Shown piece by piece: positions 2,271 through 23,804 of a DNA stretch of 64,000 nt. The notes beneath the pieces were generated by a model. It saw only the letters and a program-made list of their open reading frames with translations, made no database searches and was not told the DNA's origin. Made by a program: the position numbers and the translations under genes. The stretch spans positions 757 through 64,756 of the forward strand of contig WJJI01000014.1 of assembly GCA_014729795.1 (NCBI GenBank). Reading direction: 5' to 3'. Position 1 is the first letter of the stretch, and every line of letters starts with the position of its first letter. Source of the stretch: Candidatus Moraniibacteriota bacterium. GTDB taxonomy: Bacteria; Patescibacteriota; Minisyncoccia; CAIUEV01; JAHKAQ01.

Positions 2271-2310
2271 AATTTAAACTTTAAGATCAGCGGAGCTGCT
2301 CTTATTTGGC

Positions 2311-2339
2311 TTTACTAAAATCCGGGTTTTTGTTATAAT
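2311..2339 (+). promoter_or_regulatory. Putative sigma70-type promoter for the dacA-like/mraY transcription unit
   Basis: TTTACT (2311-2316), a 17-nt spacer, then TATAAT (2334-2339), about 150 bp upstream of the ORF at 2491. Confidence 0.3.
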
Positions 2340-2490
2340 TTTAAGACAATCAAGGCTAATTTAGCCTACCGCATTAATATGGATTACTAAGTGAATAAAT
2401 CCTAGATTAAGTTATAGATCAATGATTCATCCAAGCAAAATAATCATTTGGCTAATAAAGCCGGTTTTAAAATAACTAAACAAAAAAACA

Positions 2491-4555: not shown

Positions 4556-4577
4556 GTCTTAATAATTTATTTTTAGC

Positions 4578-5171: not shown

Positions 5172-5274
5172 AGACATTGGTTTTTTATCGTTCAGCTAAT
5201 ACCGACCAGTTTTTCGTTTGCCTTACCAAAGAAATAATGATAAATTTTTTATTTTGTAATCCATAGTAATATTT

Positions 5275-6924: not shown

Positions 6925-7398
6925 TTATCTAAAAATCATTAAAATATTATCTAACAAATACTTAACAGCTAAATTAACCGTTACGGATGTTTTGGTTTCA
7001 GGCTTAGTTAACTCAACCAGTTCTTTATTGATTATTCGCAACAGCAAATAACCGGTCACCAAAATTATAATGCCAATTAAAGCAGAAAAAATCGTGGTTT
7101 TTGCCTCCCCGGTTTTTGAGGTGTTCCCCGCTGCTGTTAAATACTGAAACCCGCCAATCATAAACATGGCCAAACCCAAAACACCGGCCACATAAACTAC
7201 GAATTTATAGATCGCATTAATGTATTCAACCGGATCATCGATTTTATCTGTAGCGCCGCCCAAGCCAAATTCAAAAGGAACTTCCAATTTCCAACCGCTT
7301 GCTTTCGCTTGCTCGGGAGTCAAAGGAAAACAGAAAAATAGAATTATTGTTAAAAAAGACAAACAACCCCTAATTAATAAATTCAAGCTCCGTTTCAT
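6925..7398 (-). CDS. VirB2/TrbC-like pilin candidate
   Basis: Signal peptide (…TPEQAKA), then two adjacent hydrophobic helices (FVVYVAGVLGLAMFMIGGFQYL and TIFSALIGIIILVTGYLLL) separated by a short polar loop. That is the hallmark layout of T4SS pilins. It sits immediately downstream of virB4. Confidence 0.4.
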   Translation of the reverse strand: MKRSLNLLIRGCLSFLTIILFFCFPLTPEQAKASGWKLEVPFEFGLGGATDKIDDPVEYINAIYKFVVYVAGVLGLAMFMIGGFQYLTAAGNTSKTGEAKTTIFSALIGIIILVTGYLLLRIINKELVELTKPETKTSVTVNLAVKYLLDNILMIFR

Positions 7399-7404
7399 GT
7401 TTTC

Positions 7405-9231
7405 TTATTTATAGTTTCTTTGTTCGCGCATTTCTTCTTTGGCTTTGGCAATTTCAATCAGCTGCTCGGGGTTAGAAGTGATAATTTGGTCTTCGGTATA
7501 AGATGCCACCACCTTAATAGCCGCGTGTTTTAAGCCGGCGAAGAAAATTCCTTCCCCAACGCTGCTTTCCAGCAAAAGAAACTTTTCCTGATCGGTTAAA
7601 TAAAAAGTTTCTGAAATAATATCAATCGAGGAAGGGGATTGCTTCAAGAGTAACTGTAAAGATGAATTAGAAATAATCGGTTTGCCGTAGCGGGAATTTA
7701 TAAAATCGCTAACATCCTGAGTAATCGTAGTAAGTCCAGTATAATATTTTCTACACCTTTTCGCAATCTGAAACATAAAATTTCCCGCATCTTCATGCAC
7801 CATCATGATCCAAGCCTCATCTACTACCAGCAATCTTTTTTTTAGTTCGCTTCTGATTTCATTCCAAATATATTGCAAAATTAAATACATTGCCACGGGT
7901 CTCAAGATTTCTTCCATGTCACGAATATTAAACACTATTAACTGATTATTTAAACGCACGTTGGTTTTTTTGTTTAAAAAACCGGCAAAAGTGCCCTGAG
8001 TGTATTTTTCCAAACGGATAGCCAGGTCTTCTCCACCGCTCATATTGCGCAACACATCATACAAAATCGATAAAGTGGGCGGATCCTTAATCGCGTTTTC
8101 AAAATTGGCGGAATCCGGGTAAATATCTTTAACCGCGTAAGCTTCGTGAATTGCTTTGTCTAAAATCGAATCTTCTTCAGGCGTGATATTACCCAAGACG
8201 ATTTTCATTAAACCCAAAATATTTGCGACATTGCCTCTTAAAACCTCTTCCGGATCGTCTCCCGGATCAAGTTTAGGCAGGTCGAACGGGTTGATATTGT
8301 TTGCCGAGTTCAGTGAAATTTTTACAAAAGTACCGCCCACGGCATCGCACAAGTGCTTATATTCGTTTTCCGGATCAATAACAATTACTTGGATGCCAAA
8401 CATCATGGAACGCAGAACTTCCAATTTGCAAGCATAAGACTTCCCTGAACCCGATTTAGCAAAAACCACCATGTTGGCGTTTTCCATTTTAAATCGATCA
8501 AAAAGAATTAAACTGTTGTTGTGTCTGTTTATTCCGTAAAGAATGCCTTCGCTGGAGCTTAAATTAGAAGAGACAAACGGAAAAGAGGTGGAAAGCGGCG
8601 ATGTGTTTAAGTTGGTAGACGCGTCAATCTCATCATTGGCCAATGGCAAGTTGGAGGCAAAAGCTTGCTCCATCCGAAAAGCCGCTGGTTTTAAATAGAT
8701 GAGCCGCGATTCCATCAAAGCTTCAATGTTGGATTCCAGCTCGTCAATTTCTTGACGGCTTGCCCCGTAAATAGTCAAATAAACCCCAAAACGGAAAAAT
8801 CTTTCCGTGCCCTGTTGTAATCGATCCCGCAATGCTTCAATGTCCTGGATTGAGGTTTCTAACAAAGGATCTCTGATCTTACCGGCTTGAGTCTCTAAAG
8901 ACATTCTTGATTGCACTTGAGTCGCGGTTTTACGAAGCGCTTTCATAATAACATGAGTTTCAATCGGATGAATAAACATGGTGATATCCATCATTTTATC
9001 CATATTTATAATTGGAGTGAGCCAGCCCGTTTGCAGGTAACGAGGAAAGGTCACCACGAAAAGGGTTTTAACGTATCGATCCCCAACCCTTAAAAAAGTG
9101 GGCGAAACCGTGAAAGAGGCCGGCGCGATTAAATCTTTGACCGTGGCCAGGCCTTTTTGGTAAAGTTGATCAGCTGTCATCTGTTTAGGGTCTTGCTTTT
9201 TTTTCTTTTTACTTTTGAAAATCGGCAACAT
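7405..9231 (-). CDS. VirB4/TrbE/CagE-family T4SS ATPase, C-terminal ATPase part
   Basis: Walker A FAKSGSGKSY, Walker B LLVVDEAW, and conserved VirB4 C-terminal blocks. Confidence 0.85.
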   Translation of the reverse strand: MLPIFKSKKKKKQDPKQMTADQLYQKGLATVKDLIAPASFTVSPTFLRVGDRYVKTLFVVTFPRYLQTGWLTPIINMDKMMDITMFIHPIETHVIMKALRKTATQVQSRMSLETQAGKIRDPLLETSIQDIEALRDRLQQGTERFFRFGVYLTIYGASRQEIDELESNIEALMESRLIYLKPAAFRMEQAFASNLPLANDEIDASTNLNTSPLSTSFPFVSSNLSSSEGILYGINRHNNSLILFDRFKMENANMVVFAKSGSGKSYACKLEVLRSMMFGIQVIVIDPENEYKHLCDAVGGTFVKISLNSANNINPFDLPKLDPGDDPEEVLRGNVANILGLMKIVLGNITPEEDSILDKAIHEAYAVKDIYPDSANFENAIKDPPTLSILYDVLRNMSGGEDLAIRLEKYTQGTFAGFLNKKTNVRLNNQLIVFNIRDMEEILRPVAMYLILQYIWNEIRSELKKRLLVVDEAWIMMVHEDAGNFMFQIAKRCRKYYTGLTTITQDVSDFINSRYGKPIISNSSLQLLLKQSPSSIDIISETFYLTDQEKFLLLESSVGEGIFFAGLKHAAIKVVASYTEDQIITSNPEQLIEIAKAKEEMREQRNYK

Positions 9232-9241
9232 GCTTTTTTAT

Positions 9242-9952
9242 TTATCCATATAAAGAGGTATTAACCGCTAATGATTCGACCGGAGCCATGCCCGTTCTTT
9301 CCACCGGATCTGGATTATAAAGAGAATAATACAACTCGATTAATTCCTGGGTGTTAAGGGGAATCATGCGCACGCCCGCACCGTTTAAACCGTATTGAAC
9401 ATGCTGGGCTCGTTGATAAATTTGTTCTTTGTAAACTTCAAAATTTTTCTTGGCTTGCTTTTGAACCGCTTGTCTGGGGCTTATAATCGCGTAAATTTTT
9501 TCAGTAATCGTGCTTTTTTGATTTTCGCTTGGAGAAAAAGGCACCACAATGTAAAAGTTCTTATTCACAATATCGCTCATAGTGCTAATATTGGTGATGT
9601 ATTTAATATAGTCTTGCATTTGCAATCGCAGTAATTCGTTAGGCTGTTCACGCGATAAGGTTTTTAAACTATTAACATAATTTGTTAAATTGACTTTTCG
9701 AGAACTGATGAAAATTTGAACCGGAAAATCAAGCGAATTAAGAAAATTTTGATAATAAGCCACAATCGCGTCTTGCTCTTCGCTTGATTTAAGATCAAAA
9801 TTAATCGAGGAAACCATCAAAACCATTCGCATACTGCCGTTTTTTAAGATCACTACCCCGTCTTTGATTTCTTCAATATCTAAAAATTGCTGGGTGCTTG
9901 CAGCTTTATTTTTCTGCTTAATAAGTTTTTTAGAATGAAGACTTTCCGGCAT
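9242..9952 (-). CDS. VirB4 N-terminal domain encoded as a separate ORF (split or frameshifted virB4)
   Basis: FLDIEEIKDGVVILKNGSMRMVLMVSSINFDLKSSEEQDAIVAYYQNFLNSLDFPVQIF matches the conserved N-terminal block of VirB4/TrsE/PrgJ-type proteins. The ORF stops 11 bp upstream of the ATPase ORF start and is in a different frame. Confidence 0.6.
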   Translation of the reverse strand: MPESLHSKKLIKQKNKAASTQQFLDIEEIKDGVVILKNGSMRMVLMVSSINFDLKSSEEQDAIVAYYQNFLNSLDFPVQIFISSRKVNLTNYVNSLKTLSREQPNELLRLQMQDYIKYITNISTMSDIVNKNFYIVVPFSPSENQKSTITEKIYAIISPRQAVQKQAKKNFEVYKEQIYQRAQHVQYGLNGAGVRMIPLNTQELIELYYSLYNPDPVERTGMAPVESLAVNTSLYG

Positions 9953-9976: not shown

Positions 9977-10669
9977 TTAAACCAAAGCGCTAAAATCTAT
10001 ATTTTGATTGGTATTATAGCTTTTATTGGCAATTTGTTGGGGATCGGACCCGGGTTTTTTATTGGGATTGGCTGGTTGAGCGGCGTTTGGGGCGTTTGGC
10101 TGGGGTGATTGTTTCTGGCCGACTTGGTTTTTTTTGTTGGATGTTGGTTGCGCGACAACGCCTCTTATTAAAGGAGCATCAATCGACTGGCGTTGGTTGA
10201 AATCTTTAGGCAGATTGCTTTGCACCGGCCGGGTTTGTTTAACGGAAGTAAGCGGATTAGCTGGAAATCCTTGCTTTCCATTCGTGTCTAGCACCCGGGA
10301 AAGCCGCCTTACCTGATCCTCCGGAAATTGTTTTTTTACCAGCACCATCTCTTTTTTTTCTTTCTTGGGCTGATGTTTTTTAAATTGACTCTTGCCTCGT
10401 TTCCAAACATAGGTTCTGTTTTTTGTTAAATAGAGACCTAAATTGGCTAAAAAAACAATCATCGGTTGTCCATAAGGTCTGACAAAAGCAAGAATCGCCG
10501 ACAATCCAAGCACAATCACCGCGATAGCGACAAACAAAGCCATCTCTACAAATTGATAAACCACAAACAATATTCCGCAACCGCCCAATATCCAAAGAAA
10601 CTGCTTCCATGTTAGTGGCCCGACAATAGTATCCTCGATATCGACATTTTGGGGAACTTTAAAACGCAT
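9977..10669 (-). CDS. PrgI/VirB3-like small T4SS membrane protein with a Q/P/N-rich C-terminal tail
   Basis: The N-terminus MRFKVPQNVDIEDTIVGPLTWKQFLWILGG, followed by two TM helices, resembles PrgI-family proteins found upstream of VirB4 in monoderm T4SSs. The C-terminal ~100 aa are low-complexity. Confidence 0.45.
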   Translation of the reverse strand: MRFKVPQNVDIEDTIVGPLTWKQFLWILGGCGILFVVYQFVEMALFVAIAVIVLGLSAILAFVRPYGQPMIVFLANLGLYLTKNRTYVWKRGKSQFKKHQPKKEKKEMVLVKKQFPEDQVRRLSRVLDTNGKQGFPANPLTSVKQTRPVQSNLPKDFNQRQSIDAPLIRGVVAQPTSNKKNQVGQKQSPQPNAPNAAQPANPNKKPGSDPQQIANKSYNTNQNIDFSALV

Positions 10670-10830: not shown

Positions 10831-12165
10831 TTATTCCCGGATGTCTTTTTCAAATATTACTTCGCCCCGGCTTTGAGATATGGTCAAAGGCGCGTTTTCA
10901 TCATAAGAAAGCACAATTTGAGCTAATTTGTTTAAATCCTCTTGGTCAATAGTTTGGACATTGGATGATTTGTGCAAAAAGTCTCGTTGATCTTCTTCGG
11001 TATGGTGAGAAACCCCGTAACGATTACGATAATCCAAAATCCAGTTTTGAATGGTTGGCGGGACTGTGCCGGGTTGGCCTAACCGGTAAAGTGGTTTTTT
11101 GGTGATAAGTTGATCAGCCACCTTGGGAATGGTTTTTAAAGCGTCCTTAATTGGCATCTTGACCAGGTCTTTTTCATTTGCTGGAGGAGCTTGCGCGACA
11201 GCGGGTTGGTTCAAGTCTTTTTTGGCTTGTTCTAAAGTCGGACTTTTTTTAACAACTGGTTTTGATTGAGCAACAGCAGATTCCGGACCGGGTTGCTGTT
11301 GTTGGGTCTGGACGCTTTGATTCTTTGAGTACCGGGGTTGAGCTGCTGGAGTTTGGGTTTGGGCAGGCGTCGGCGCTTGATCTTGTATTATACCCTGTAC
11401 CTCCTGTTGAACCGGCATTTTAAATTTCGGTTTGGCCGGAGGCTGGGGCTGAGGCACTGGTTTTGGCTGCCAAGCCGGTTTAATATCTTGAGGTTGGATT
11501 TCGGCTCTTTCCTCCTCTTGTTCTTCTGAGTCAATTTCTTGAGCAATCCTGGATAAGTTTTTAGCCAACTGCAGCGCTTCCTTAAGGGAGGGTAACTTAA
11601 GGTATTCAAATGCCAAAAAAAGTTTTTTCAAGGCTTGCTTATAGTCATCGCTTATTCCTTGAGCGTTGGGGCTGTTAGCTAAAAAACGAACAATCGCCAT
11701 TTCATCATCTTGTTTTTCCATGCCATAAGCTTCGGTGTAATGTCTTAACCAATTACCAATGGTAGCGTTTTTTTGAGCGCCATTCTTAAAAATCAATTGA
11801 TTATCAGCCAATTTTTGTTCATTTTCCAACAAAGCCCGCAATATTAATTGTAAATAGTTAAGCCAAGGAGCGCTTGGAATGCTCATGCGTAAGCGTTCCA
11901 ACAGCTTTTCCAAATCAGAGCTTTTATCCACCAAAGGCAACAAAAAATGATCGCGCAACATTTCCAGTTGCTCATTCTGGGTCAAAGTGGGTAATAAAAC
12001 CCATCTGATTTTCAGTTTAGCCTCTTCTATCCAGTCTGGATCCAAGTCTTTTAAATTTTCCGGATTTGAAAAAAACTCCTCCAGTTCCTGAGCCTCATCA
12101 AGGTTTTGACCCGACCAGGCTCGATATAACTTTAATTTTAATTGGTTAAAATCTTGTTTGTTCAT
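10831..12165 (-). CDS. Hypothetical protein with a central P/Q-rich linker (T4SS operon member)
   Basis: 444-aa ORF with an ordered N-terminal ~220 aa, a PQPQPPAKPK…QTQTPAAQP linker and an ordered C-terminal ~120 aa. No motif recognised. Confidence 0.5.
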   Translation of the reverse strand: MNKQDFNQLKLKLYRAWSGQNLDEAQELEEFFSNPENLKDLDPDWIEEAKLKIRWVLLPTLTQNEQLEMLRDHFLLPLVDKSSDLEKLLERLRMSIPSAPWLNYLQLILRALLENEQKLADNQLIFKNGAQKNATIGNWLRHYTEAYGMEKQDDEMAIVRFLANSPNAQGISDDYKQALKKLFLAFEYLKLPSLKEALQLAKNLSRIAQEIDSEEQEEERAEIQPQDIKPAWQPKPVPQPQPPAKPKFKMPVQQEVQGIIQDQAPTPAQTQTPAAQPRYSKNQSVQTQQQQPGPESAVAQSKPVVKKSPTLEQAKKDLNQPAVAQAPPANEKDLVKMPIKDALKTIPKVADQLITKKPLYRLGQPGTVPPTIQNWILDYRNRYGVSHHTEEDQRDFLHKSSNVQTIDQEDLNKLAQIVLSYDENAPLTISQSRGEVIFEKDIRE

Positions 12166-12196: not shown

Positions 12197-14734
12197 TCAA
12201 AATGGCCCGCTTCCGGATTTCTGCCGGCTTATTAAAACTTGATTAATGGTTTCGGTTATTTTCTTCACTTGATCCCTATCCAAATTGTTATCACTCTTCA
12301 AATCCCTGACTTTTTGCTTCATGGCGTTTGCCACCGCGTCAGAAATATTAAAAGCGCTGTTTTGAAAGCCTTGAGTATCCATTCTCTTAATAAGATGCTC
12401 AAAAACCACTCTATCATTTATATGTTGGGGTTTTAAGCTTCTGGCCAAACCTCGGTTGTTCATGCTTTGTATTTCACTTATTACAAACTCTTGTTGTTCT
12501 TTCGGCTCAGCCAAACGCAACTCTTTTGTTATAGGGTCAATTCGAGTTAACCCGGCATGATAAAAATCGTCATTGGCCATAGCCGTAGCGCTTAAATCGC
12601 TGGCAAGTCTTCTTTGCTGACGACTATCGCTAAATTCTGTTTCCAAAAATTTCTTTATGCCATCGGCGTCGTCTTTGCGGCCGAGAGCGCTTAAAAATGG
12701 CTTGATCGCGCCCATGCTCCAAGCCATACGCGTTAAGGCTTCCTTCTGATTTTCGTTGGTTGTGCCTTGATAAGCTTGAATCAATTGTTCAGGGGTGCGA
12801 ACCCCGCTTTGCTTGTATTTTTCTGTTTCGTTGGCCACCTCGACTTCTCTTGGTCGGTCGTAATTAACAGCTTCTCTAAAATGATTTTTCCAAACAGCTT
12901 TTCTGGCGTTTTTAATTGCTTCTTTGTCTTTGTTTTCATTAAGCTCGCCAGCTTCACTAAGTTTTTCCTTTAAAACTTGGTTGGCATGTTCTTTGTCAGT
13001 AATTCTAAGTTCGTTTCCTTGTTTTTGGCTTTTTTTGTCAGCAATTCTAAGTTCGTTTCCTTGTTTTTGGCTTTCGAGCTCTTGAATTTGTTTTTCAAGA
13101 GCTTCTCTGTCATTATTAGCTTTTTTTCTTGCTTTTTCATCTTCGATCTCCTTTATTTCTTTTTCCAGTTGTTCGTTTTCACCTTCGATCTCCTTTATTT
13201 CTTCCTCGTTGTTTTTTATTTCCTTATTCGCATTGTCTCTTTTTTGGTTTCTTTGGTTTTGTTCTATTTCCTCGGCTCTTTTTTTGGCGCCTCTATCAAA
13301 AAAGGCACTGGCTCCGGTAAGGGTCTTTTCAATAGCCTCCGTATCTTCTTCTCTCATCGCATGTTTGGTGCGATTTATTTTTTCCTTCACAAGCCTACCA
13401 GTATTAACGGGATCTAAAAAAGCCGAAGCTAATTTTAGGCCTCCGCCAACTTTTTGCAATCCTTTTCCCGCCAAATTTCTTACCTTTTTTTCACTTTCAG
13501 ACATTTTTTTGCCTTTATTCTCAATCACGCCTCCAAGTTTTCTCGCGGCTACTTTTGTCAGACCGGCCACTCCAAGTCCGGTCAACGCCGCTGCTCCCGC
13601 TGTTGAGAGCTTCATGGCCATGCCAGCGCCGGCTGCGCCCATAACCCCGGCCATGTAAACCGAGCCAATCAAAAGCACCATAGCGAATATTAAATAAATC
13701 CAGGTATTATAAGAATTAATATGATTTTCGGCTTTAGAAGTATGCTCTGCCCCATCAATTTGGCTGGCAATATTCGAGATGCTATCGCCTCCCTCCGAAG
13801 GAATGATGGTAAGAACCTCAGCGCTAAACCAAAGGAAAAAAAGCATCAAAGGGCCCATAAAAGCATATTTCAAAAAAGCGCTCCACCATTTACTGGCCAT
13901 GCCTTGGGTGTCGGGCAATATCATGCCCACGTAAGCCAAAGGAGAAACAACAATCAAAACCCAAATAGCCACGGTTCTAACAATTAAAAGCATGGCCACA
14001 GAACCAATTACAAAGGTGGCTAAAAACACAAACGCCACAGTTAAAACCGGGCCGATTGCTGTCGCAACAATTTCAACTAAATCGTCAGCGCTCAAAATTT
14101 TTAATATAATATCTGCCGTTGCCTTCCATTTCAAAGCCAATAAATTCCAGATCGTTTCTCTGAGTTTTGCTATGGGGTTTCCAAAAATGTTACCAAACAT
14201 GATAACATGGGTAAAATCCAAAACTATACCGGCAAACACCCGGCTAAAATTGGTTAAAAAAGCCAAGATCACCAATCGCACCAACAGCTTCTTGTAACTA
14301 TATTTTTCCACGCGAAAAATCGTACCCACTCCAATAAACAATAAAGCCACGATAAAGCCCATATCCGCGATTAAAGTCACTATGTTATGAGCCTTGATAA
14401 TGGTTTCATTGCTGGCAAAACCGCCGAGTTCCATATAAAAATCCGGATTGAAAAAGTCTTCAATCATATTAGAAGCAACAAGAAAGAAAATCCAAGCGAC
14501 AAACTGAAGCATTGTTGCTATAACTATCATAAAGCCCACCGGAAGCTTAATAAAAATAAAAGAAAAGAATTCCCAACCCGCATTGGTTAACCCTTTTAAA
14601 AGCTGATCTATCCAACCTGCTTGAGTCGGTTCTGGCGCCATCAGAAAAAAAACAACTGCAATTATTAACCCCAGCAAAGTTAAATATTTCCAATTATTTT
14701 TATTGCTTATTTTGTTTTTGATTTTTTCAATCAT
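12197..14734 (-). CDS. VirB6/TrbL-like polytopic T4SS membrane protein with a long C-terminal coiled-coil tail
   Basis: The N-terminal ~480 aa hold at least 8 TM helices. The C-terminal ~350 aa are charged coiled-coil with in-frame tandem duplications. Position and topology match VirB6-like proteins such as TcpH and PrgH. Confidence 0.4.
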   Translation of the reverse strand: MIEKIKNKISNKNNWKYLTLLGLIIAVVFFLMAPEPTQAGWIDQLLKGLTNAGWEFFSFIFIKLPVGFMIVIATMLQFVAWIFFLVASNMIEDFFNPDFYMELGGFASNETIIKAHNIVTLIADMGFIVALLFIGVGTIFRVEKYSYKKLLVRLVILAFLTNFSRVFAGIVLDFTHVIMFGNIFGNPIAKLRETIWNLLALKWKATADIILKILSADDLVEIVATAIGPVLTVAFVFLATFVIGSVAMLLIVRTVAIWVLIVVSPLAYVGMILPDTQGMASKWWSAFLKYAFMGPLMLFFLWFSAEVLTIIPSEGGDSISNIASQIDGAEHTSKAENHINSYNTWIYLIFAMVLLIGSVYMAGVMGAAGAGMAMKLSTAGAAALTGLGVAGLTKVAARKLGGVIENKGKKMSESEKKVRNLAGKGLQKVGGGLKLASAFLDPVNTGRLVKEKINRTKHAMREEDTEAIEKTLTGASAFFDRGAKKRAEEIEQNQRNQKRDNANKEIKNNEEEIKEIEGENEQLEKEIKEIEDEKARKKANNDREALEKQIQELESQKQGNELRIADKKSQKQGNELRITDKEHANQVLKEKLSEAGELNENKDKEAIKNARKAVWKNHFREAVNYDRPREVEVANETEKYKQSGVRTPEQLIQAYQGTTNENQKEALTRMAWSMGAIKPFLSALGRKDDADGIKKFLETEFSDSRQQRRLASDLSATAMANDDFYHAGLTRIDPITKELRLAEPKEQQEFVISEIQSMNNRGLARSLKPQHINDRVVFEHLIKRMDTQGFQNSAFNISDAVANAMKQKVRDLKSDNNLDRDQVKKITETINQVLISRQKSGSGPF
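12993..13202. repeat. Two pairs of in-frame 42-bp tandem duplications inside the VirB6-like gene
   Basis: The 40-nt unit ttgtcag(t/c)aattctaagttcgtttccttgtttttggcttt occurs at 12993-13032 and 13035-13074. The 20-nt unit cttcgatctcctttatttct occurs at 13141-13160 and 13183-13202. Both have a 42-bp period (14 aa). Confidence 0.8.
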
Positions 14735-14735
14735 T

Positions 14736-15236
14736 TTAATTGGCTTGTTTTAATTTGGCTCTTAAGCGTTGAATCTGGGCGGTTAATTTTTGCGACTTTT
14801 CCACAATTTCTTGAGACCGTTCAAGGTTTTTTTCAGATTGTTTTTTTGAAGAGCGCCAGGCAAGTAAAACCATAATTGTTGTAATCGGAGTAATGCCATC
14901 CAAAAAAGGAATAAAAGCCGCGATTAAATCTATTATTATGGGAAGAATTATCCTTAAAAATTTTTTCCAAAGATGCCTTCTCCAACCCATTTGCCACCAT
15001 ATCGGTATAGCAACAAACAGAAATTTTATTATCGGGGAAATACCCACATCCAAGGGGGGAGGCAAAAGGTCGGTAAATTCTGACATAACTGCGAACATCA
15101 AGGCGATTATAAAGATAGTATCGTTATACTGTTGGGCCTTGTCGAATAGTTTTTTCGCTTTTGCTTCAAGTTTCTTTTGAACCGATTGGTTACGCAATAT
15201 CAATTTCAGAATTCTTTGGTTTGTTGGGACAGCCAT
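14736..15236 (-). CDS. Small integral membrane protein (3 predicted TM helices), T4SS operon member
   Basis: 166-aa ORF with hydrophobic segments IFIIALMFAVM, ISPIIKFLFVAIPIWW and ILPIIIDLIAAFIPFL. Its stop abuts the VirB6-like start. Confidence 0.5.
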   Translation of the reverse strand: MAVPTNQRILKLILRNQSVQKKLEAKAKKLFDKAQQYNDTIFIIALMFAVMSEFTDLLPPPLDVGISPIIKFLFVAIPIWWQMGWRRHLWKKFLRIILPIIIDLIAAFIPFLDGITPITTIMVLLAWRSSKKQSEKNLERSQEIVEKSQKLTAQIQRLRAKLKQAN

Positions 15237-15261
15237 TTTTAAAATCAGCGCTTACTTTATT

Positions 15262-17292
15262 TTAAAAAATACTATTATTATCAACTTTTTGCCAGTTTCG
15301 CCCGTTTTGTGAAGTGGCTGAAAAAATTGTCCACACCGCTCCGTCAAAACCCGCGTACCACATTCGATATGGCCCTCCGGCTTCGCCGGCTAAACCGTCT
15401 TGGTCTTCAGTTACAACCATTGGGCCTACTACCTGAACATTATCCCCATCTCCTCTTTCGCCTACATCCAGTACGACCTCGCCCGGAGGAAAGGAACTCG
15501 GTGTTGGAGATTGGGTGTAAAAAATACGCCACGTTGCTCCATCATACCCACTATACCACATATGATACATTTTATAAATCGGTTGACAACGTTCAATGCA
15601 GCACTGTTCATTAAACTTTCTTTCTAAAATAACCGAAGGAGCGGATACATACACGCTGTCCTTGGCGTCTTTATTGGAGTTGGGTTCTAGCGCGATTTGA
15701 TGGCTGGAGCTGTCTGACCACCACAAAGGATCAACGCTCTTGGCGTGGTATATTCTCCAGGTCGCCCCATCAAATCCACTGTACCACATATGATACATTC
15801 GAAATGTTTCAAAACAAATCTCTACATATTGGTTGCAAATACATTGCGAATCAATATCTGCCACCATAGCCGGGCTGTCAACATGAACATGGGGCTTAGA
15901 AGCTTGATTTTCGCCACTTACGTCAATTTGCAAGCGCCCTCGACTTTTGTCCCAGGTATAAGTGTCCATGCTGGTGGCTCCAAAAATGCGCCAAGCTGCC
16001 CCCGCTTGCAGAGTATAACCGCTGTAATACATAATATAATCATTTTGAACCTCTGTCTCTCCTTGCTGCTGTCGCACTTCTCTTTGAGTAAAAACCCAGG
16101 GATTAGCTGTGTGGATAAAATCCAAGAATCCTTTCGGCGAATTGGGTACGCGGCCATTGGTGCCGACCAAACTCCGCTCGGGTACGCTGTTATCAACTTT
16201 GCTTAAATTATCGGCATTGCTTGCTTCAGCCATGTAAATCCTCCAGTTTGCGGAGTTATAACCGGGATACCAAAGCTTATACTGGTTGGAGTTTTGAGGA
16301 TATATAGCAGCCGGACCATCGGGGGAATTTACGTGTTCTCCGGCGGCCAAGCCGGTTGAGCCACCCCCTACATAGGTTTGGTCGCCTTTGCCTTTTGTTC
16401 CAAGCACGATCCTCCCGCCACCGGAACTGCTGTCGCTCCGATTGATGCCGCCATCGCCTGTTTCTTCTAAATCGCCGCCATTATCCAAGCCATCAAAAGG
16501 AGATTCGGAATAATCGGCCAAAAAATCAGAAGTATCGAGCTGATTTAAATCAACCTGATTGTCCTTATCCTGCCTGTCTGCGTCCGAATCATCAAAAACA
16601 CTGTCGGTTTCGCCTGAATCATTAGCTTGGTTTGTTTCCGGCTCGGTTTCGAGAGTGTCGGAATCACCGGATTCCCGGTTTTGTCCCAATTCCGGACTCG
16701 GCTGATTGCCGGTATCTTCAGTTTGGTTTGTTTTAAGCCCGGCAAGTTCTTCAACCGCCTGTTCTTTGATTTCCCGCGCCTGGGTCAAACAAAAGACATA
16801 TTGTTCATGATCGCCCAAGTTTTCTTCGATATAATCTTGTTGAATTAGCTGTTGATCTCCGTTTTTACGATTCTCGTAATCTTCGCACCAAGATTTTGCT
16901 TCAGGATTAAGCTCGCCCAAATATTTATTGACCACCGGAGCGCCGTTTACACAAGTAACCGTCAGTCGATCTCCTTGGGAATTACAGTACATTTCTCCCG
17001 GACTTTGACTGGAGCATTCTTGGCCATGACTCATCAAAATCCAATCGCCTTCTGGTCTCATGGCGACACAATCCGGTGTAAAATCAAGGGTTTGAGCTTG
17101 ATCTTGGTTTTCTAAACCGGTTGATTCGGCTTGAGATTTTTGCGTTAATCGGGTTTGCCGCCGCGCGGTTTCAGAAACTTGAGCCAGTCCAATTAACAAA
17201 GAACCCAAAATCACTAAAATTGAGGCTACGATAAAGAAATTTTTTCTTTTATAAATAAAATTAATCAAACGATCTGAAATATTTTGGCGCAT
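15262..17292 (-). CDS. Membrane-anchored or secreted large protein with an acidic low-complexity region and five tandem beta-propeller-like (Asp-box) repeats
   Basis: N-terminal TM/signal, then a D/E/S/N/G-rich stretch, then five repeats of about 55-70 aa sharing (Y/F)xM(W)YSG(F/Y)DGAxWRI(F/Y)xAxS followed by SxDxxxW-like Asp-boxes. Repeats 3 and 4 are nearly identical. Confidence 0.6.
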   Translation of the reverse strand: MRQNISDRLINFIYKRKNFFIVASILVILGSLLIGLAQVSETARRQTRLTQKSQAESTGLENQDQAQTLDFTPDCVAMRPEGDWILMSHGQECSSQSPGEMYCNSQGDRLTVTCVNGAPVVNKYLGELNPEAKSWCEDYENRKNGDQQLIQQDYIEENLGDHEQYVFCLTQAREIKEQAVEELAGLKTNQTEDTGNQPSPELGQNRESGDSDTLETEPETNQANDSGETDSVFDDSDADRQDKDNQVDLNQLDTSDFLADYSESPFDGLDNGGDLEETGDGGINRSDSSSGGGRIVLGTKGKGDQTYVGGGSTGLAAGEHVNSPDGPAAIYPQNSNQYKLWYPGYNSANWRIYMAEASNADNLSKVDNSVPERSLVGTNGRVPNSPKGFLDFIHTANPWVFTQREVRQQQGETEVQNDYIMYYSGYTLQAGAAWRIFGATSMDTYTWDKSRGRLQIDVSGENQASKPHVHVDSPAMVADIDSQCICNQYVEICFETFRMYHMWYSGFDGATWRIYHAKSVDPLWWSDSSSHQIALEPNSNKDAKDSVYVSAPSVILERKFNEQCCIERCQPIYKMYHMWYSGYDGATWRIFYTQSPTPSSFPPGEVVLDVGERGDGDNVQVVGPMVVTEDQDGLAGEAGGPYRMWYAGFDGAVWTIFSATSQNGRNWQKVDNNSIF

Positions 17293-17614
17293 TTTGTTTT
17301 ATTGATGTTTTGTTATTTTATTTATAGCAAATTTATATCCTAGATGTAAAGGCGTTGAGTCTGAAGCCTTTATTTTTTCTTTACTTTTATGAAAAACAAT
17401 TAAAACAACCTCTTTCCCGCTTTCTTTTAAAATTTTTATCATCTCGTCTCTCTCTGTTTCACGATTTTCATTTTCAGCATTATTTGTTTTAATTTTTAAA
17501 AAAAACAACCCAAATGAACAATTCGAAACAAGGGTTTTTAAAAATATTGCATTGTTTGTTATTTATATTATCCGGATTTTTTACTATTTTATACTTTATA
17601 AGCGCGGTAACAAT

Positions 17615-18925
17615 TCAATATCTTATAAACAATGTCAAAGATAATATTATTAACAGAAAGGCTGTTGTTAATGGAATGTATTTTAAAAAAATATATTTAG
17701 CGATATTTGCTTTTTGATTTAAATAAACAAAAATAATAAATAATGGGATTAAAGTAAATAGAATATATCTAAAATCACCAACGCAAGAATAAGGATTAAA
17801 AATTCTCATTATAATTATTGAGAATAAAAATAAACAAATAAAAATTAAAAGACTTTTAATTTTATTAATACAAATTTTTTTAGATATGAATATATACAAT
17901 AAGGTTATCATATAAATTAATAATGCCAAGAAGTTAATTATTGAAATTATGGTGTGGTTTATTTTATCTCCTGGATTAAACCACTCAATACTTATGCTTG
18001 TTTTTATTAAAAAATTCCAAAAAAGTTTTGATTGTTCATTAGTATCCAAACCATTAGCTATTGGATGTTTTATAAAATTACGGAAATCAAAAACCAAATA
18101 ATTTATCGGTTCGTTTTTAAATTTTAATTCGTGAACGTTTTCTAATTCGTGAATATTTTCAATTAATGTTGTAAATTTTTTATTATCCGGGCGTATATAG
18201 TTTGGGATATAAAATAATAAAAATATCAAGAATATAATAAAAAGCGCTTTAATATTTTTTAAAACGAAAATATGTTTTTTGTTTTTCATAATAAAAATAA
18301 CTCCGATGAAAACAAAACTGACTAACCCGCTAAGTTTTGTTATTAGCGCTAAACCGGCAAACAATGAAGCTAAATATAAATATTGATTTTTTGAAAATTT
18401 ATTCCATAAAAGGGTTAAGTGTAAAGATACAATAACGAAAAAATATAATAAAAGATCATTACCAATTCTACCTGAATGTATTATTAAAGATGGCCAAAAA
18501 GAAATTAAAGCCAAAAATAGAATTAAATATTTTTTTGAGACTATGTATTGTTTTGCAATCTTTAAAGAGAAAAAAAGAACCCCAAGCATAAATAAGAGAG
18601 ATTGACATTGCAAACTCTTTAAAGCAATATCTTTATTATTATATATTAATAAGAACATTTTATATGTGATCGCAGAAATAATATAATATAGTGGAGGATG
18701 CCAACACTCCCAACATGCTTGTTTTTGTGGTAATTTATAATATTTTGAAATATATTCAATATATTCAATATGACCCCCAACGTCATGGGTATTAATTTGA
18801 TAAGGTGTCTGATTAATATAATGAATTCTGATTAAGATTGCCGATATAAAAATTAATAAAATAATTATTTTTTCTTTATAGGTAATAATTTTTTTAAGTT
18901 TGTTTATAAGTTTTGTTCGTATCAT
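17615..18925 (-). CDS. GT-C fold membrane glycosyltransferase (PMT_2/ArnT/GT39-83-like)
   Basis: Polytopic protein of 11 or more TM helices. The first extracytoplasmic loop carries DVGGHIEYIEYI…CWHPPLYY, typical of ArnT/PMT-family lipid-linked sugar transferases. The segment is extremely AT-rich. Confidence 0.5.
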   Translation of the reverse strand: MIRTKLINKLKKIITYKEKIIILLIFISAILIRIHYINQTPYQINTHDVGGHIEYIEYISKYYKLPQKQACWECWHPPLYYIISAITYKMFLLIYNNKDIALKSLQCQSLLFMLGVLFFSLKIAKQYIVSKKYLILFLALISFWPSLIIHSGRIGNDLLLYFFVIVSLHLTLLWNKFSKNQYLYLASLFAGLALITKLSGLVSFVFIGVIFIMKNKKHIFVLKNIKALFIIFLIFLLFYIPNYIRPDNKKFTTLIENIHELENVHELKFKNEPINYLVFDFRNFIKHPIANGLDTNEQSKLFWNFLIKTSISIEWFNPGDKINHTIISIINFLALLIYMITLLYIFISKKICINKIKSLLIFICLFLFSIIIMRIFNPYSCVGDFRYILFTLIPLFIIFVYLNQKANIAKYIFLKYIPLTTAFLLIILSLTLFIRY

Positions 18926-19114
18926 TTGTTTTAATAAACTAAAGAGTATCTACTAAAAAAGATAATTCAAAATGATGTTGACAAAGACGCAACAACAATT
19001 TTTACAAAAAAGCAAAAAGTGTTCAAATTTGAGTCGGGTTGCTTGTTTGTAAAGTTTTTTCCCGGGGGTAAGTATGCTTTGTCTTTTTTAACCGGCTTCT
19101 ACCTACTTTAAAAT

Positions 19115-19408
19115 TTAATAATTGTGGGTTTGAGCGTAATTCAAAGAAGCGACCACGGCTTGAGCGATTTTTTGACTAGAATAGTTTTGATCAATATCTG
19201 ACCTTAATTTAAATTTTTTTATGGCTTTAATATCTACTTTTTGCTTGGTTAGCAAAGCGGCAATTTCCTTTAAAAGCCGGGTGGATAAATCACGTTTATC
19301 CTTCCAAACCGATCGGGCTTCAAGCTTGCCCTTATTAAGTAGCTCTAAAACGACCTCGGAATTTTTTATTTTTATGATTAAGTCCATGATATTCTTGCTT
19401 TTAATCAA
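19115..19408 (-). CDS. Small protein resembling the N-terminal half of TsaB/YeaZ (97 aa); otherwise hypothetical
   Basis: MDLIIKIKNSEVVLELL…RDLSTRLLKEIAALLTKQKVDIKAI loosely parallels the TsaB N-terminal pattern (ILAIDTS…VALL…HS..LLP.I..LL). The GPGSFTG motif is missing. Confidence 0.3.
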   Translation of the reverse strand: MIKSKNIMDLIIKIKNSEVVLELLNKGKLEARSVWKDKRDLSTRLLKEIAALLTKQKVDIKAIKKFKLRSDIDQNYSSQKIAQAVVASLNYAQTHNY

Positions 19409-19559
19409 ATTTTAGTTATTATACAATAAAAGTAAAGTAGCTTTTGGAAAATAATGCATGGTTGCGAAAATTTCATTTTTTGATGATTTTTGGCTAATGT
19501 TGGCAAAAAATCTTACAATATACTTTAAAATGGAATTTGCGGTAGTCGATTTATTTTTC

Positions 19560-19725
19560 AGAGGTTCCCAAACAAAATAGAAGCGATTGAAAATGGCCTC
19601 ACCAGCCGTTTGAGCTTCCGGAAACGCTGATCCGAATAAGCCGGCGAAAAAGAGTCCAATAATTTGGAAAGCTAAGTGGAACCGCCCAATCCGGGTCTTA
19701 GCGTTTATTTAAATTACTGGATTTT
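19560..19725 (+). promoter_or_regulatory. Candidate T-box leader/attenuator upstream of thrS
   Basis: AAGUGGAACCGCC resembles the T-box core AGGGUGGNACCGCG in 9 of 13 positions. It is embedded in a GCUAAG…CUUAGC hairpin followed by GUUUAUUU. The upstream CUCACCAGCC contains the Thr codon ACC followed by A, and an AGAGG element lies further upstream. Confidence 0.25.
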
Positions 19726-19790
19726 TTTATTTTCGTAAACCTTTAGCGGCTATCTTGTTAACAAGTTCAAATAATGATTAAACTTATAAA

Positions 19791-23792: not shown

Positions 23793-23804
23793 ATATATAT
23801 TTAT

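What the first reader, a model, noticed from the sequence alone, without database searches (positions are those of the whole stretch)
15262..17292. 676-aa surface protein with five tandem Asp-box/propeller-blade-like repeats and an acidic disordered spacer, encoded as the first gene of the T4SS operon
After an N-terminal TM/signal there is a ~120-aa D/E/S/N/G-rich low-complexity segment. Five repeats follow, built around (M)WYSG(F/Y)DGA(T)WRI(F/Y)xAxS plus SxDxxxW motifs: YKLWYPGYNSANWRIY, YIMYYSGYTLQAGAAWRIF, YHMWYSGFDGATWRIY, YHMWYSGYDGATWRIF and YRMWYAGFDGAVWTIF. The pattern resembles blades of 5-bladed beta-propellers (GH43/GH32/GH130-DUF377-like) or sialidase-type Asp-box propellers. Repeats 3 and 4 are almost identical at the protein level, suggesting recent intragenic duplication. 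Its position in the T4SS operon suggests a cell-contact adhesin or cell-wall-targeting module.
Basis: partly seen in the sequence, partly recalled or inferred. Interest (0 to 1): 0.6.

Follow-up and report, generated by a model that had tools for sequence, protein, structure and literature searches.

The report
Tethered enzyme-like propeller beside T4SS
This gene encodes a membrane-anchored protein with a five-bladed propeller head that looks like a sugar-cleaving enzyme but lacks that enzyme family's key catalytic residue. It occurs only next to the type IV secretion genes of a small group of ultra-small (Patescibacteria) bacteria, where it probably grips cell-wall sugars rather than cutting them.

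Summary
A 676-aa ORF (15262-17292, minus strand) encodes an N-terminal membrane anchor, an orphan Cys-containing segment (aa 38-184), an acidic disordered linker (aa 185-295) and five significant tandem repeats (aa 296-676).

- **Catalysis.** The protein is not a regular GH130 member. The invariant catalytic Asp is Asn397, no carboxylate is conserved at the canonical positions across orthologues, and the blades are far more alike than in a real GH130 enzyme.
- **Blade 3/4 similarity.** It is old, not a recent duplication.
- **Linkage.** In six Patescibacteria genomes, window included, the gene and a small membrane-protein gene (p166) sit directly upstream of virB6-unk444-prgI-trsD-virB4. None of 80 sister T4SS loci has them.
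- **The slot.** In 20 of the 21 sister loci with enough upstream DNA, the same position holds either a LysM-CHAP wall hydrolase or a TSP3-repeat surface-protein pair.
- **Fusion.** In one homologue the propeller is fused to an NlpC/P60 peptidoglycan peptidase.

Best reading: a tethered, catalytically degenerate, glycan-binding wall-targeting or adhesin accessory of this T4SS. The fold and the linkage are shown; the binding function is inferred.

The parts
15262..17292 (-). Complete CDS of the 676-aa tethered propeller protein (stop codon 15262-15264)
   Evidence: ORF list. It is 100% identical to NCBI MAG protein GF332_01585.
17182..17292 (-). aa 1-37: short basic cytoplasmic N-terminus (net +4) plus a hydrophobic TM anchor (aa 19-37). 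The predicted topology is N-in, C-out.
   Evidence: Sequence and charge. AF2 gives a helix over aa 17-57 with pLDDT about 70-83. Orthologues P0003-P0006 have a lipobox (LAGC) instead.
16741..17181 (-). aa 38-184: orphan segment with six Cys and ordinary composition, possibly a small extracytoplasmic domain; unique to this protein
   Evidence: Absent from the orthologues. No relatives were found (a weak negative). AF2 predicts weak beta/alpha structure at pLDDT 31-45.
16408..16740 (-). aa 185-295: acidic, D/E/S/T/N/G-rich disordered linker
   Evidence: D+E 27%, net charge -24, hydrophobic residues 14%. pLDDT 22-31 with no secondary structure. Orthologues have shorter polar linkers of variable length.
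15265..16407 (-). aa 296-676: five-bladed beta-propeller, GH130/GH43-like fold. By segmentation, blades are aa 296-372, 373-452, 453-534, 535-606 and 607-676.
16102..16104 (-). Codon of Asn397, the position equivalent to the invariant GH130 catalytic Asp (EDPR motif)
   Evidence: Profile-frame alignment with 9fj8 and 7fip. GH130 Asp142 is invariant and D142N is inactive (PMC4599007). Across orthologues the position reads N, S, N, N, N, N, D, E.
15691..15936 (-). Blade 3 with a long (17+17 residue) Cys-bearing beta-hairpin; carries the subfamily-specific invariants D479, I480, C484, E495 and R498
   Evidence: DSSP strands E175-191 and E196-212 of the model. Invariant columns in all eight T4SS-linked homologues.
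15475..15690 (-). Blade 4 with a long (13+13 residue) Cys-bearing hairpin (invariant C565 and H577)
   Evidence: DSSP strands E253-265 and E276-288. Invariant columns.
14736..15236 (-). p166: small membrane protein, the constant neighbour of the propeller gene (upstream or downstream of it in different genomes)
   Evidence: tblastn hits in L001-L008. BLASTP E = 2e-18 to the L009 neighbour. No Pfam hit.
12197..14734 (-). VirB6/TrbL-like polytopic membrane protein (845 aa)
   Evidence: PF04610 TrbL at E = 0.003, below threshold. Orthologues carry TrbL/TrbL_4 hits. Conserved in position.
10831..12165 (-). Conserved unknown 444-aa T4SS-cluster protein
   Evidence: No Pfam hit and no meaningful PDB hit. 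Conserved in position in all arrays.
9977..10669 (-). PrgI (VirB3-like) protein
   Evidence: PF12666 at E = 4e-9.
9242..9952 (-). TraC-like/TrsD-type protein (236 aa)
   Evidence: The orthologues hit PF26593 TraC-like and are 61-75% identical.
7405..9231 (-). VirB4 ATPase
   Evidence: PF19044 at E = 3.5e-28. It is 77-84% identical in the propeller-bearing genomes.
6925..7398 (-). T4SS pilin (VirB2-like)
   Evidence: PF18895 at E = 8e-9.

Best explanation
The gene encodes an extracytoplasmic accessory protein of a narrow clade of Patescibacteria (Moranbacteria-type) type IV secretion systems.

**Anatomy.** An N-terminal membrane anchor (a lipid anchor in some orthologues) and a long flexible acidic linker tether a five-bladed beta-propeller outside the cytoplasmic membrane. 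The propeller descends from the GH130/GH43 glycosidase superfamily but is catalytically degenerate by the GH130 mechanism (Asn397 replaces the invariant catalytic Asp), and it is unusually symmetric.

**Proposed mechanism.** It acts as a lectin on a leash. The former active-site face binds a cell-wall or cell-surface glycan, either the bacterium's own wall or the host cell's. The conserved Cys-stapled hairpins on the opposite face dock it to the T4SS membrane partners p166 and/or VirB6. This anchors or targets the secretion channel at the wall or host surface, in the way LysM does for the LysM-CHAP hydrolase that occupies the same genomic slot in sister systems.

**Shown:** the ORF, the repeats, the fold, loss of the GH130 catalytic Asp, conserved synteny, slot equivalence and the NlpC/P60 fusion.

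**Inferred:** extracytoplasmic topology, glycan binding, which face does what, the partner proteins, and the role in T4SS function.
For: **Fold.**
- AF2 pLDDT 82.5, pTM 0.88.
- The broad family profile hits GH117 and GH130 structures at E = 1e-26 to 1e-21.

**Degenerate catalysis.**
- The GH130 'EDPR' Asp aligns to Asn397, and to Ser or Asn in five other orthologues.
- That Asp is invariant in GH130, and D142N is inactive (PMC4599007).
- No column before the strand-A Pro holds a conserved carboxylate in any blade.
- Mean inter-blade z is 13.2, against 2.0 in the GH130 enzyme 9fj8.

**Tethering.** The N-terminus is basic and followed by a TM helix. Orthologues have a lipobox, and two of those genomes encode LspA. 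The linker is disordered.

**T4SS linkage.**
- Every close homologue (L001/6, L002-5/8, L007, L009) is flanked by a p166 homologue and followed by VirB6, unk444, PrgI, TraC-like and VirB4, while the outer flanks differ.
- More distant propeller relatives have no T4SS nearby.
- The propeller is 36-44% identical across genomes whose VirB4 is 77-84% identical, as expected for an exposed component.

**Wall connection.**
- In 21 sister loci the slot upstream of virB6 holds LysM-CHAP (10) or a TSP3-repeat protein pair (10), never both.
- In L009 the propeller is fused to an NlpC/P60 peptidoglycan endopeptidase (PF00877, 36.7 bits; MepS E = 2e-9).

**Precedents.** Inactive VirB1 homologues have been proposed as adhesins in Gram-positive T4SSs (PMC12857230). 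The phage phi11 receptor-binding protein uses a five-bladed propeller cavity proposed to accommodate wall-teichoic-acid GlcNAc (PMC4901313).
Against: - There is no direct evidence of glycan binding or of physical association with the T4SS. The link rests on synteny in only six genomes.
- One orthologue (L007) keeps Asp and another (L009) has Glu at the GH130 catalytic position. Activity may therefore persist in part of the clade, or a non-canonical active site may exist.
- I could not inspect the model coordinates. Assigning conserved residues to the 'top' or 'bottom' face rests on general propeller topology, not on measurement.
- LysM-CHAP genes coexist about 9 kb upstream in three propeller-bearing genomes, so the propeller does not simply stand in for VirB1.
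- The function of the Patescibacteria T4SS itself is unknown.
Confidence: 0.5

Rival explanations
1. It is an active extracytoplasmic glycoside hydrolase (or another carbohydrate-active enzyme) on the GH130/GH43 scaffold, using a non-canonical catalytic set. It would remodel the bacterium's own or the host's wall polysaccharide to let the T4SS or pilus pass, as a glycan-directed functional equivalent of VirB1.
For: - The fold and remote homology point to glycosidases and phosphorylases.
- Four of seven subfamily members give sub-threshold PF04041 hits.
- It sits in the slot where sister clusters encode a wall hydrolase.
- L007 retains Asp and L009 has Glu at the GH130 catalytic position.
- The Patescibacteria T4SS survey notes that VirB1 is often missing and that other glycosidases might fill the role (PMC12102498).
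- No LysM-CHAP gene was found in the 64-kb window or in L001.
Against: - Asn397 is equivalent to the inactive D142N mutant.
- The candidate catalytic positions vary (N/S/D/E, S/N/E/G, A/H/E/D/K) among orthologues that should share one function.
- In the profile frame, the 9fj8 residues I take from memory to be phosphate-binding (HR, YH) align to Tyr-Ser and Trp-Tyr.
- The high blade symmetry is unlike the one real GH130 enzyme compared.
- Mannoside phosphorylases of GH130 work in intracellular mannooligosaccharide metabolism (abstract of PMC7660257), whereas this protein is exported.
Confidence: 0.2
2. It is a purely structural protein-protein scaffold of the T4SS envelope assembly, for example a wall-spanning collar or cap around the VirB6 channel or the pilus base. 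The propeller would serve as an interaction platform with no glycan ligand.
For: - Beta-propellers are common interaction platforms (general knowledge).
- The most subfamily-specific conserved features are the long Cys-bearing hairpins, not the former active-site positions.
- The gene is strictly co-located with p166 and VirB6.
- Monoderm T4SSs lack VirB7/9/10 and their wall-spanning parts are poorly known (PMC12102498).
Against: - It is restricted to a narrow clade. Sister T4SSs with the same core (0 of 80 loci) do without it, so it is not a core structural part.
- The slot alternatives (LysM-CHAP, TSP3 proteins) and the NlpC/P60 fusion point to wall or surface ligands.
- A tether 45 to about 260 aa long and variable in length fits a reaching or binding head better than a fixed ring subunit.
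Confidence: 0.2
3. The gene is only a neighbour. It would belong to envelope-polysaccharide metabolism, whose genes flank the T4SS clusters, and have no functional tie to the T4SS.
For: Glycosyltransferase, Wzz/Wzy, flippase and sugar-transferase genes flank the cluster in the window and in the related loci.
Against: - The outer flanks differ between genomes (a membrane protein, a flippase, or RsmA), while the p166-propeller-virB6 block is constant.
- Gaps to the following genes are very short (25 nt and 1 nt).
- Related propellers outside this clade are never next to a T4SS, and clade members always are.
Confidence: 0.05

Closest known systems
GH130 beta-mannoside phosphorylases/hydrolases (e.g. 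Teth514_1788, PDB 9fj8; BT3780, PDB 5a7v; Pfam PF04041)
   Same: - The blade motif Y-x-M-W-Y-x-G...R-I-G-x-A-x-S-x-D-G-x-x-W is shared, and blades align one-for-one in a common profile.
- Sub-threshold PF04041 hits in orthologues.
   Different: - The invariant catalytic Asp is Asn397.
- Putative phosphate-site residues are not conserved.
- No Pfam hit for the window protein itself.
- It is exported and membrane-tethered rather than cytoplasmic.
- The blades are highly symmetric.
- Blades 2-4 carry long Cys-bearing hairpins.
GH43 / GH137 / GH117 five-bladed propeller glycosidases (e.g. 3qz4, 5mt2, 4ak6)
   Different: No conserved Asp/Asp/Glu-type carboxylates at the strand-A positions across orthologues. 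Sequence identity is only 11-16%.
VirB1-type T4SS cell-wall hydrolases of monoderm systems (LysM-CHAP proteins; NlpC/P60 hydrolases of Tn916-like elements)
   Same: - It occupies the same genomic slot, directly upstream of virB6.
- One homologue (L009) carries an NlpC/P60 domain, so that the architecture 'wall-binding module + cysteine peptidase' parallels LysM + CHAP.
   Different: - The window protein has no peptidase or lysozyme domain.
- The propeller is unrelated in sequence and fold to LysM.
- LysM-CHAP genes coexist nearby in three propeller-bearing genomes.
Surface adhesins of Gram-positive conjugative T4SSs (PrgB of pCF10; inactive VirB1 homologues proposed as adhesins)
   Same: It is an accessory, surface-exposed, polymer-binding protein encoded with the T4SS genes. 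The idea of a catalytically inactive hydrolase-like protein used for binding has a precedent (PMC12857230).
   Different: - No polymer adhesin domain.
- No LPxTG sortase signal; the C-terminus is ...VDNNSIF.
- Anchoring is by an N-terminal TM helix or lipid instead.
- There is no sequence or fold relationship.
Receptor-binding protein Gp45 of Staphylococcus phage phi11
   Same: A five-bladed propeller used non-enzymatically, with a central cavity proposed to bind GlcNAc of wall teichoic acid on a Gram-positive surface (PMC4901313).
   Different: Gp45 is a phage baseplate trimer. No detectable sequence similarity: tblastn against phages found nothing, and the viral fold search gave only weak matches to unnamed proteins.

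Membership tests
Five-bladed beta-propeller glycosidase superfamily (GH32/43/62/68/117/130/137 fold) | Closed propeller of five four-stranded blades | tested here: met
   [not shown]
GH130 (Pfam PF04041) | Sequence reaches the curated Pfam gathering score (26 bits) | tested here: not met
   The window protein has no PF04041 hit. The best scores seen for close orthologues scanned full-length are 22.7-23.9 bits. Four of seven subfamily members hit, with a best E-value of 1.2e-5.
GH130 (Pfam PF04041) | Invariant catalytic Asp of the E-D-P-R motif (BT3780 Asp142 = BF0772 Asp131 = UhgbMP Asp104) | tested here: not met
   In a common profile frame the Asp aligns to Asn397 in 'HTANPWV'. Orthologues read S, N, N, N, N, D, E. 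D142N is inactive (PMC4599007).
GH130 (Pfam PF04041) | Basic phosphate-binding residues (phosphorylases) or the replacing Glu pair (hydrolases) | tested here: inconclusive
   The 9fj8 'HR' and 'YH' positions align to Tyr-Ser and Trp-Tyr. I could not confirm from a paper which 9fj8 residues bind phosphate, and no structural superposition was available.
GH43 | Asp (base), Asp (pKa modulator) and Glu (acid) on the innermost strands of three blades (established knowledge) | tested here: inconclusive
   No position next to the strand-A Pro holds a conserved carboxylate in any blade across eight orthologues. Residue-level structural superposition on a GH43 enzyme was not possible.
Sialidase/BNR Asp-box propellers | Six-bladed (or larger) propeller with repeated S-x-D-x-G-x-T-W Asp-boxes; BNR Pfam hits | tested here: not met
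   There are five blades and no BNR Pfam hit. An S-x-D-x-x-x-W-like motif occurs in only 2-3 blades.
VirB1-type T4SS peptidoglycan hydrolase | Lytic transglycosylase, lysozyme, CHAP or NlpC/P60 catalytic domain | tested here: not met
   None in the window protein. It is present only as a C-terminal NlpC/P60 domain in the L009 homologue.
PrgB-type T4SS adhesin | Polymer adhesin domain and a C-terminal LPxTG sortase motif | tested here: not met
   No Pfam hit. The C-terminus reads ...QKVDNNSIF, with no LPxTG.
Accessory component of the Patescibacteria MPF-FATA-like T4SS | Conserved co-location and co-orientation with virB6/prgI/virB4 across genomes whose outer flanks differ | tested here: met
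   Six genomes (the window plus L001/6, L002-4/8, L005, L007 and L009) share the block. It is absent from 80 sister loci, so it is clade-specific.
Accessory component of the Patescibacteria MPF-FATA-like T4SS | Physical or functional interaction with the T4SS | not testable with these tools
   This needs co-purification, cryo-ET, genetics or multimer structure prediction.

The most novel reading that the evidence does not exclude
The position directly upstream of virB6 in Patescibacteria T4SS clusters is a swappable envelope-interaction cassette: LysM-CHAP hydrolase, a TSP3-repeat surface-protein pair, or p166 plus the propeller. Within it, the propeller would be a glycosidase-derived pseudoenzyme lectin that decides which cell wall or host surface the secretion machine engages. 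That would make it a host-specificity determinant of an epibiotic lifestyle, evolving several times faster than the core ATPase.
Probability: 0.25. Interest if true: 0.65.

Novelty: new variant of a known kind. Interest (0 to 1): 0.45.

Why it matters
The T4SS of Patescibacteria is essential for epibiotic growth in the one cultivated model, Southlakia (PMC10633639). It lacks relaxase and coupling proteins, and what it does and how it reaches across two cell walls are unknown.

The published survey of these systems left genes without Pfam or NCBIfam hits unannotated, and neither that survey nor the 2025 T4SS review mentions a propeller (PMC12102498; PMC12857230).

This work assigns a fold and a testable role to one such grey gene. 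It also shows that the slot next to virB6 carries three mutually exclusive wall- or surface-directed cassettes. Together these give concrete candidates for the wall or host contact step, and another example of a glycosidase fold apparently repurposed as a non-catalytic binder.

The reach is limited, because the propeller cassette was found in only six genomes.

Tried and rejected
1. **Full-length homology search.** It returned only the protein itself, because the low-complexity half swamped the word index. I repeated it with the repeat domain alone.
2. **Sialidase/Asp-box reading.** Rejected on blade number and fold hits.
3. **Recent duplication of blades 3 and 4.** Rejected on codon usage and orthologue conservation.
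4. **Simple replacement of VirB1.** Weakened, because LysM-CHAP genes persist about 9 kb upstream in L002, L005 and L007.
5. **The ~330-aa partner of the TSP3 protein as a divergent propeller.** hhalign probability was 0.1%.
6. **Subfamily-only profile against PDB.** Only marginal, blade-level GH130 hits (E = 4e-4).
7. **AFDB fold search.** Unavailable. The viral fold search gave only weak matches to unnamed large phage proteins.
8. **N-terminal aa 38-184.** No relatives found. This is a weak negative, because the parent protein was not returned either.
9. **unk444 against PDB.** Nothing meaningful.
10. **tblastn of the propeller against plasmids and phages.** No match.
11. **Promoter/terminator scan of 14600-19800.** Counts were not above shuffles (24 against 18.9 +/- 4.5 promoters; 4 against 4.7 terminators). 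It gives no independent support for an operon start.
12. **Southlakia T4SS cluster (SEML1_0006-0019).** Checked in the supplements of PMC10633639; it holds no five-bladed propeller.
Full report
**1.

An ATG-initiated ORF of 676 aa lies at 15262..17292 on the minus strand. Its product is 100% identical to a 'hypothetical protein' (GF332_01585) of a Candidatus Moranbacteria metagenome-assembled genome.

Their cores start at aa 346, 427, 508, 584 and 650, a spacing of 81, 81, 76 and 66 aa. Cutting the C-terminal 381 residues into five blade-sized segments and aligning them pairwise gives z-scores of 4.9 to 29 against shuffled sequences. The repeat is therefore not a chance pattern.

The acidic spacer is aa 185-295: 27% Asp+Glu, net charge -24, only 14% hydrophobic residues. 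In a full-length AlphaFold2 model it has pLDDT 22-31 and no secondary structure, which is consistent with disorder.

One correction is needed. Between the membrane anchor (aa 19-37) and this spacer lies aa 38-184, which is not low-complexity and carries six cysteines.
- It is missing from all orthologues.
- It has no detectable relatives. This is a weak negative, since that search did not return the parent protein either.
- It is predicted with low confidence.

The S-x-D-x-x-x-W motif is present in only two or three blades.

**2. Gene context in the window.**

Downstream on the same strand are:
- a 166-aa membrane protein (p166; 25-nt gap);
- a VirB6/TrbL-like protein (1-nt gap);
- an unknown 444-aa protein;
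- PrgI (VirB3-like);
- a 236-aa TraC-like/TrsD-type protein;
- VirB4;
- a T4SS pilin (coordinates).

This is the monoderm-type (MPF-FATA-like) T4SS described for Patescibacteria (PMC12102498). Both sides of the cluster are flanked by envelope-polysaccharide and peptidoglycan genes. A consensus promoter/terminator scan gave nothing above shuffled controls, so operon membership rests on the short gaps and on synteny.

**3. The fold.**

The protein has no Pfam hit and only a faint NCBIfam hit to a GH130 mannobiose phosphorylase (E = 0.078).

Searching with the repeat domain alone found five close relatives in Patescibacteria (35-42% identity). Beyond them is a long tail of proteins that carry GH130 (PF04041), GH32N or GH43 hits.

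An exhaustive HMMER search found 694 relatives at E <= 1e-3. They include giant proteins with up to 30 matching stretches. In several of the relatives scanned, the PF04041 match falls mostly on the same one to two blades of the profile, so the similarity is largely blade-level.

Structure evidence:
- AlphaFold2 with a 27-sequence alignment gave a confident all-beta model (pLDDT 82.5, pTM 0.88).
- Foldseek agrees.
- A profile of the broad family hits GH117 and GH130 structures at E = 1e-26 to 1e-21.

**4. It is not a regular enzyme of that superfamily.**

I placed two GH130 structures (9fj8, 7fip) and the T4SS-linked subfamily in one profile frame. The blades align one-for-one, and the GH130 'E-D-P-R' motif of blade 2 falls on 'A-N-P-W' (Asn397) in the window protein.

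That Asp (BT3780 Asp142, BF0772 Asp131, UhgbMP Asp104) is invariant in GH130, and the D142N mutant is inactive (PMC4599007).

The table shows the residue immediately before the innermost-strand proline, for all eight T4SS-linked homologues. Sequence order is window, P0002, P0003-P0006, L007, L009.

| Blade | Residues |
|---|---|
| 1 | G, G, G, G, G, G, S, D |
| 2 | N, S, N, N, N, N, D, E |
| 3 | S, S, N, N, N, N, E, G |
| 4 | A, H, E, E, E, E, D, K |
| 5 | G in all seven that have this blade |

No canonical catalytic position holds a conserved carboxylate. L007 (Asp) and L009 (Glu) show that the acidic residue survives in part of the clade.

The blades are also far more alike (mean pairwise z = 13.2) than those of the GH130 enzyme 9fj8 (mean z = 2.0). 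I read that degree of symmetry as pointing to a binding or scaffold propeller rather than an enzyme (inference).

The residues that are both invariant and specific to this subfamily lie in unusually long beta-hairpins: 13-17 residues per strand in blades 2-4. Those of blades 3 and 4 carry the conserved residues D479, I480, C484, E495, R498, C565 and H577. By general propeller topology, these inner-strand hairpins project from the face opposite the usual active site. I could not access the coordinates to verify this.

**5. The 'recent duplication' claim fails.**

Blades 3 and 4 are the most similar pair (27/57 identical, z = 29). However, their core is only 48/66 identical at DNA level, and only 8 of 15 identical residues use the same codon. 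The same blade-3/blade-4 motif pair is present in orthologues that are only 36-44% identical overall. The similarity is therefore ancient and maintained.

**6. Topology.**

The N-terminus is basic (+4) and followed by a 19-residue hydrophobic helix. That predicts an N-in, C-out orientation (inference from the positive-inside rule).

Four orthologues replace the anchor by a lipobox (…LAGC…), and two of their genomes encode signal peptidase II nearby.

Linker length varies from about 45 to about 260 residues. In every case the propeller is a tethered extracytoplasmic head.

**7. Linkage to the T4SS.**

Contigs encoding the three closest homologues all show the propeller immediately upstream of VirB6-like, a 400-490-aa unknown, PrgI, TraC-like and VirB4.

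A scan of one genome per species found two more such loci, L007 and L009. tblastn with the window's T4SS proteins confirmed the full array in every close homologue. The 39 more distant propeller loci (L010-L048), including two from other Patescibacteria, have no T4SS gene within 10 kb.

A p166 homologue is always adjacent, downstream of the propeller in the window and L001, and upstream in the others. The outer flanks differ (a membrane protein, a flippase, or RsmA), so the conserved unit is p166 + propeller + virB6...virB4.

Identity to the L001 orthologues shows that the exposed and membrane parts evolve fast together:

| Protein | Identity to L001 |
|---|---|
| VirB4 | 84% |
| TraC-like | 75% |
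| Pilin | 61% |
| PrgI | 55% |
| Propeller | 42-45% |
| unk444 | 38% |
| VirB6 | 36% |
| p166 | 34% |

**8. The propeller is clade-specific and sits in a variable slot.**

Eighty metagenomic loci anchored on VirB4 (62-77% identical) contain no propeller or p166 homologue, although 30 or so carry VirB6 and the rest of the array.

In the 21 of them with at least 3.5 kb upstream of virB6:
- 10 hold a LysM-CHAP peptidoglycan hydrolase (the VirB1 type of monoderm T4SSs) in that position;
- 10 hold a TSP3-repeat surface protein plus a ~330-aa unknown protein;
- none hold both, and one holds neither.

The unknown partner is not a propeller.

Three propeller-bearing genomes keep a LysM-CHAP gene about 9 kb upstream, so the propeller is an addition or alternative rather than a strict replacement. 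The characterised Saccharibacteria T4SS cluster has no propeller. Nothing similar is found on sequenced plasmids or phages.

**9. A Rosetta-stone fusion.**

In the most divergent T4SS-linked homologue (L009, 30% identity), the propeller is followed by a Gly/Cys-rich linker and a genuine NlpC/P60 peptidoglycan endopeptidase domain.
- PF00877 scores 36.7 bits against a cutoff of 23.
- E. coli MepS/Spr matches at E = 2e-9, with the motifs that hold the catalytic Cys and His in NlpC/P60 enzymes ('DCS', 'H-x-GIY'; residue roles from my own knowledge) aligned.
- Weaker hits go to Tn916-type conjugative-element wall hydrolases.

The architecture 'propeller + cysteine peptidase' parallels 'LysM + CHAP'. 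This argues that the propeller plays the wall-binding, targeting role.

**10. Mechanism proposed.**

Steps shown:
- an exported, tethered architecture predicted from sequence;
- a GH130/GH43-type propeller;
- loss of the GH130 catalytic Asp;
- strict co-location with p166 and virB6;
- slot equivalence with wall- or surface-directed proteins;
- fusion to a peptidoglycan peptidase in one lineage.

Steps inferred:
- the former active-site funnel binds a glycan of the cell wall or cell surface, its own or the host's;
- the conserved hairpins dock to p166 and/or VirB6;
- the flexible acidic leash lets the head reach into or beyond the wall;
- the module anchors or targets the T4SS at the envelope or host contact.

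Precedents for the logic exist. Inactive VirB1 homologues have been proposed as adhesins in Gram-positive T4SSs (PMC12857230). The phage phi11 receptor-binding protein has a five-bladed propeller whose cavity could accommodate GlcNAc of wall teichoic acid (PMC4901313).

Rivals and my estimates:

| Explanation | Confidence |
|---|---|
| Tethered glycan-binding accessory (preferred) | 0.5 |
| Active non-canonical glycosidase acting as a glycan-directed VirB1 | 0.2 |
| Pure protein-protein scaffold | 0.2 |
| Mere neighbour | 0.05 |

**11. Comparison, novelty and score.**

The protein works like a carbohydrate-binding targeting module or T4SS adhesin. By fold it belongs to the five-bladed glycosidase superfamily. 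It fails the membership tests for GH130 (gathering score and catalytic Asp), and it has no domain of VirB1- or PrgB-type proteins.

Neither the Patescibacteria T4SS survey nor the 2025 T4SS review mentions such a component. I rate it a new variant of a known kind.

Interest is moderate (0.45). It gives a fold and a testable role to a 'grey' T4SS gene and exposes a three-way variable cassette next to virB6. Against that, it is confined to six genomes and its function is inferred, not shown.

Noticed in passing
L058, L062, L067, L078, L092, L104, L114, L119, L120, L126 (TSP3 type); L083, L096, L100, L103, L110, L111, L116, L117, L123, L124 (LysM-CHAP type): the 2.5 kb upstream of virB6: In sister Patescibacteria T4SS clusters the slot directly upstream of virB6 holds one of two things. 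One is a LysM-CHAP peptidoglycan hydrolase. The other is a pair made of a TSP3_bac-repeat protein and a ~330-aa unknown protein with a Cys-rich C-terminus. The split is 10 : 10, with none holding both and 1 holding neither. With p166 + propeller this makes three mutually exclusive cassettes.
   Followed up: partly
L009:4856-6859 (+): This is a 667-aa homologue in which the propeller is fused, through a repetitive Gly/Cys-rich linker (…CGSCGGTG… twice), to a C-terminal NlpC/P60 peptidoglycan endopeptidase. It appears to have only four clearly alignable blades plus an N-terminal region.
   Followed up: yes
window 14736-15236 (-): p166 is a small protein that looks by eye to have about three hydrophobic helices and charged, coiled-coil-like ends. 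It is always adjacent to the propeller gene, but on either side of it in different genomes. It has no Pfam family; the L009 homologue has a weak DUF4112 hit (E = 0.004). It is a candidate membrane partner of the propeller.
   Followed up: partly
window 16741-17181 (-), aa 38-184 of the protein: This is an orphan segment with six Cys and ordinary composition, inserted between the membrane anchor and the acidic linker. It is absent from every orthologue, and AF2 gives only a low-confidence beta/alpha prediction.
   Followed up: partly
window 17615-18925 (-): A 436-aa polytopic membrane protein with no Pfam hit lies in a 29% G+C island, while the neighbouring DNA is about 37-40% G+C. It sits immediately upstream of the propeller gene on the same strand. 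It may be a laterally acquired glycosyltransferase-like gene.
   Followed up: no
window 12197-14734 (-), about aa 555-590 of the VirB6-like protein: The VirB6-like protein has a long charged, coiled-coil-like C-terminal half containing a short tandem duplication (…SQKQGNELRIADKK SQKQGNELRITDKE…).
   Followed up: no
window 10831-12165 (-) and its counterparts in L001-L009 and about 30 sister loci: A 400-490-aa protein of unknown function lies between virB6 and prgI in the arrays examined here that carry virB6 (one exception, L126). It has no Pfam hit and no meaningful PDB hit. It is a candidate for the missing VirB8-like or wall-spanning component.
   Followed up: partly
P0076 (5844 aa) and other hits: The same blade type occurs in giant proteins, with up to 30 matched stretches in one 5844-aa protein. 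It also occurs in proteins combined with Laminin_G_3 or T9SS sorting domains, in many phyla including archaea. This suggests a large unannotated family of symmetric GH130-like propeller modules in surface proteins.
   Followed up: no
L051, L053, L054 (VirB4 73% identical): These loci have the TraC-like gene and virB4 but no detectable virB6 or prgI within 10 kb upstream. A weak unk444-like match lies on the opposite strand. This is a different cluster organisation despite a closely related VirB4.
   Followed up: no
window 1-6456 and 22677-25268; L001, L002, L005 flanks: The T4SS clusters of this clade are embedded among envelope-polysaccharide genes (GT4, GT1, GT2, Wzz/Wzy, flippase, sugar transferase). 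In the window there is also a D-Ala-D-Ala carboxypeptidase.
   Followed up: no
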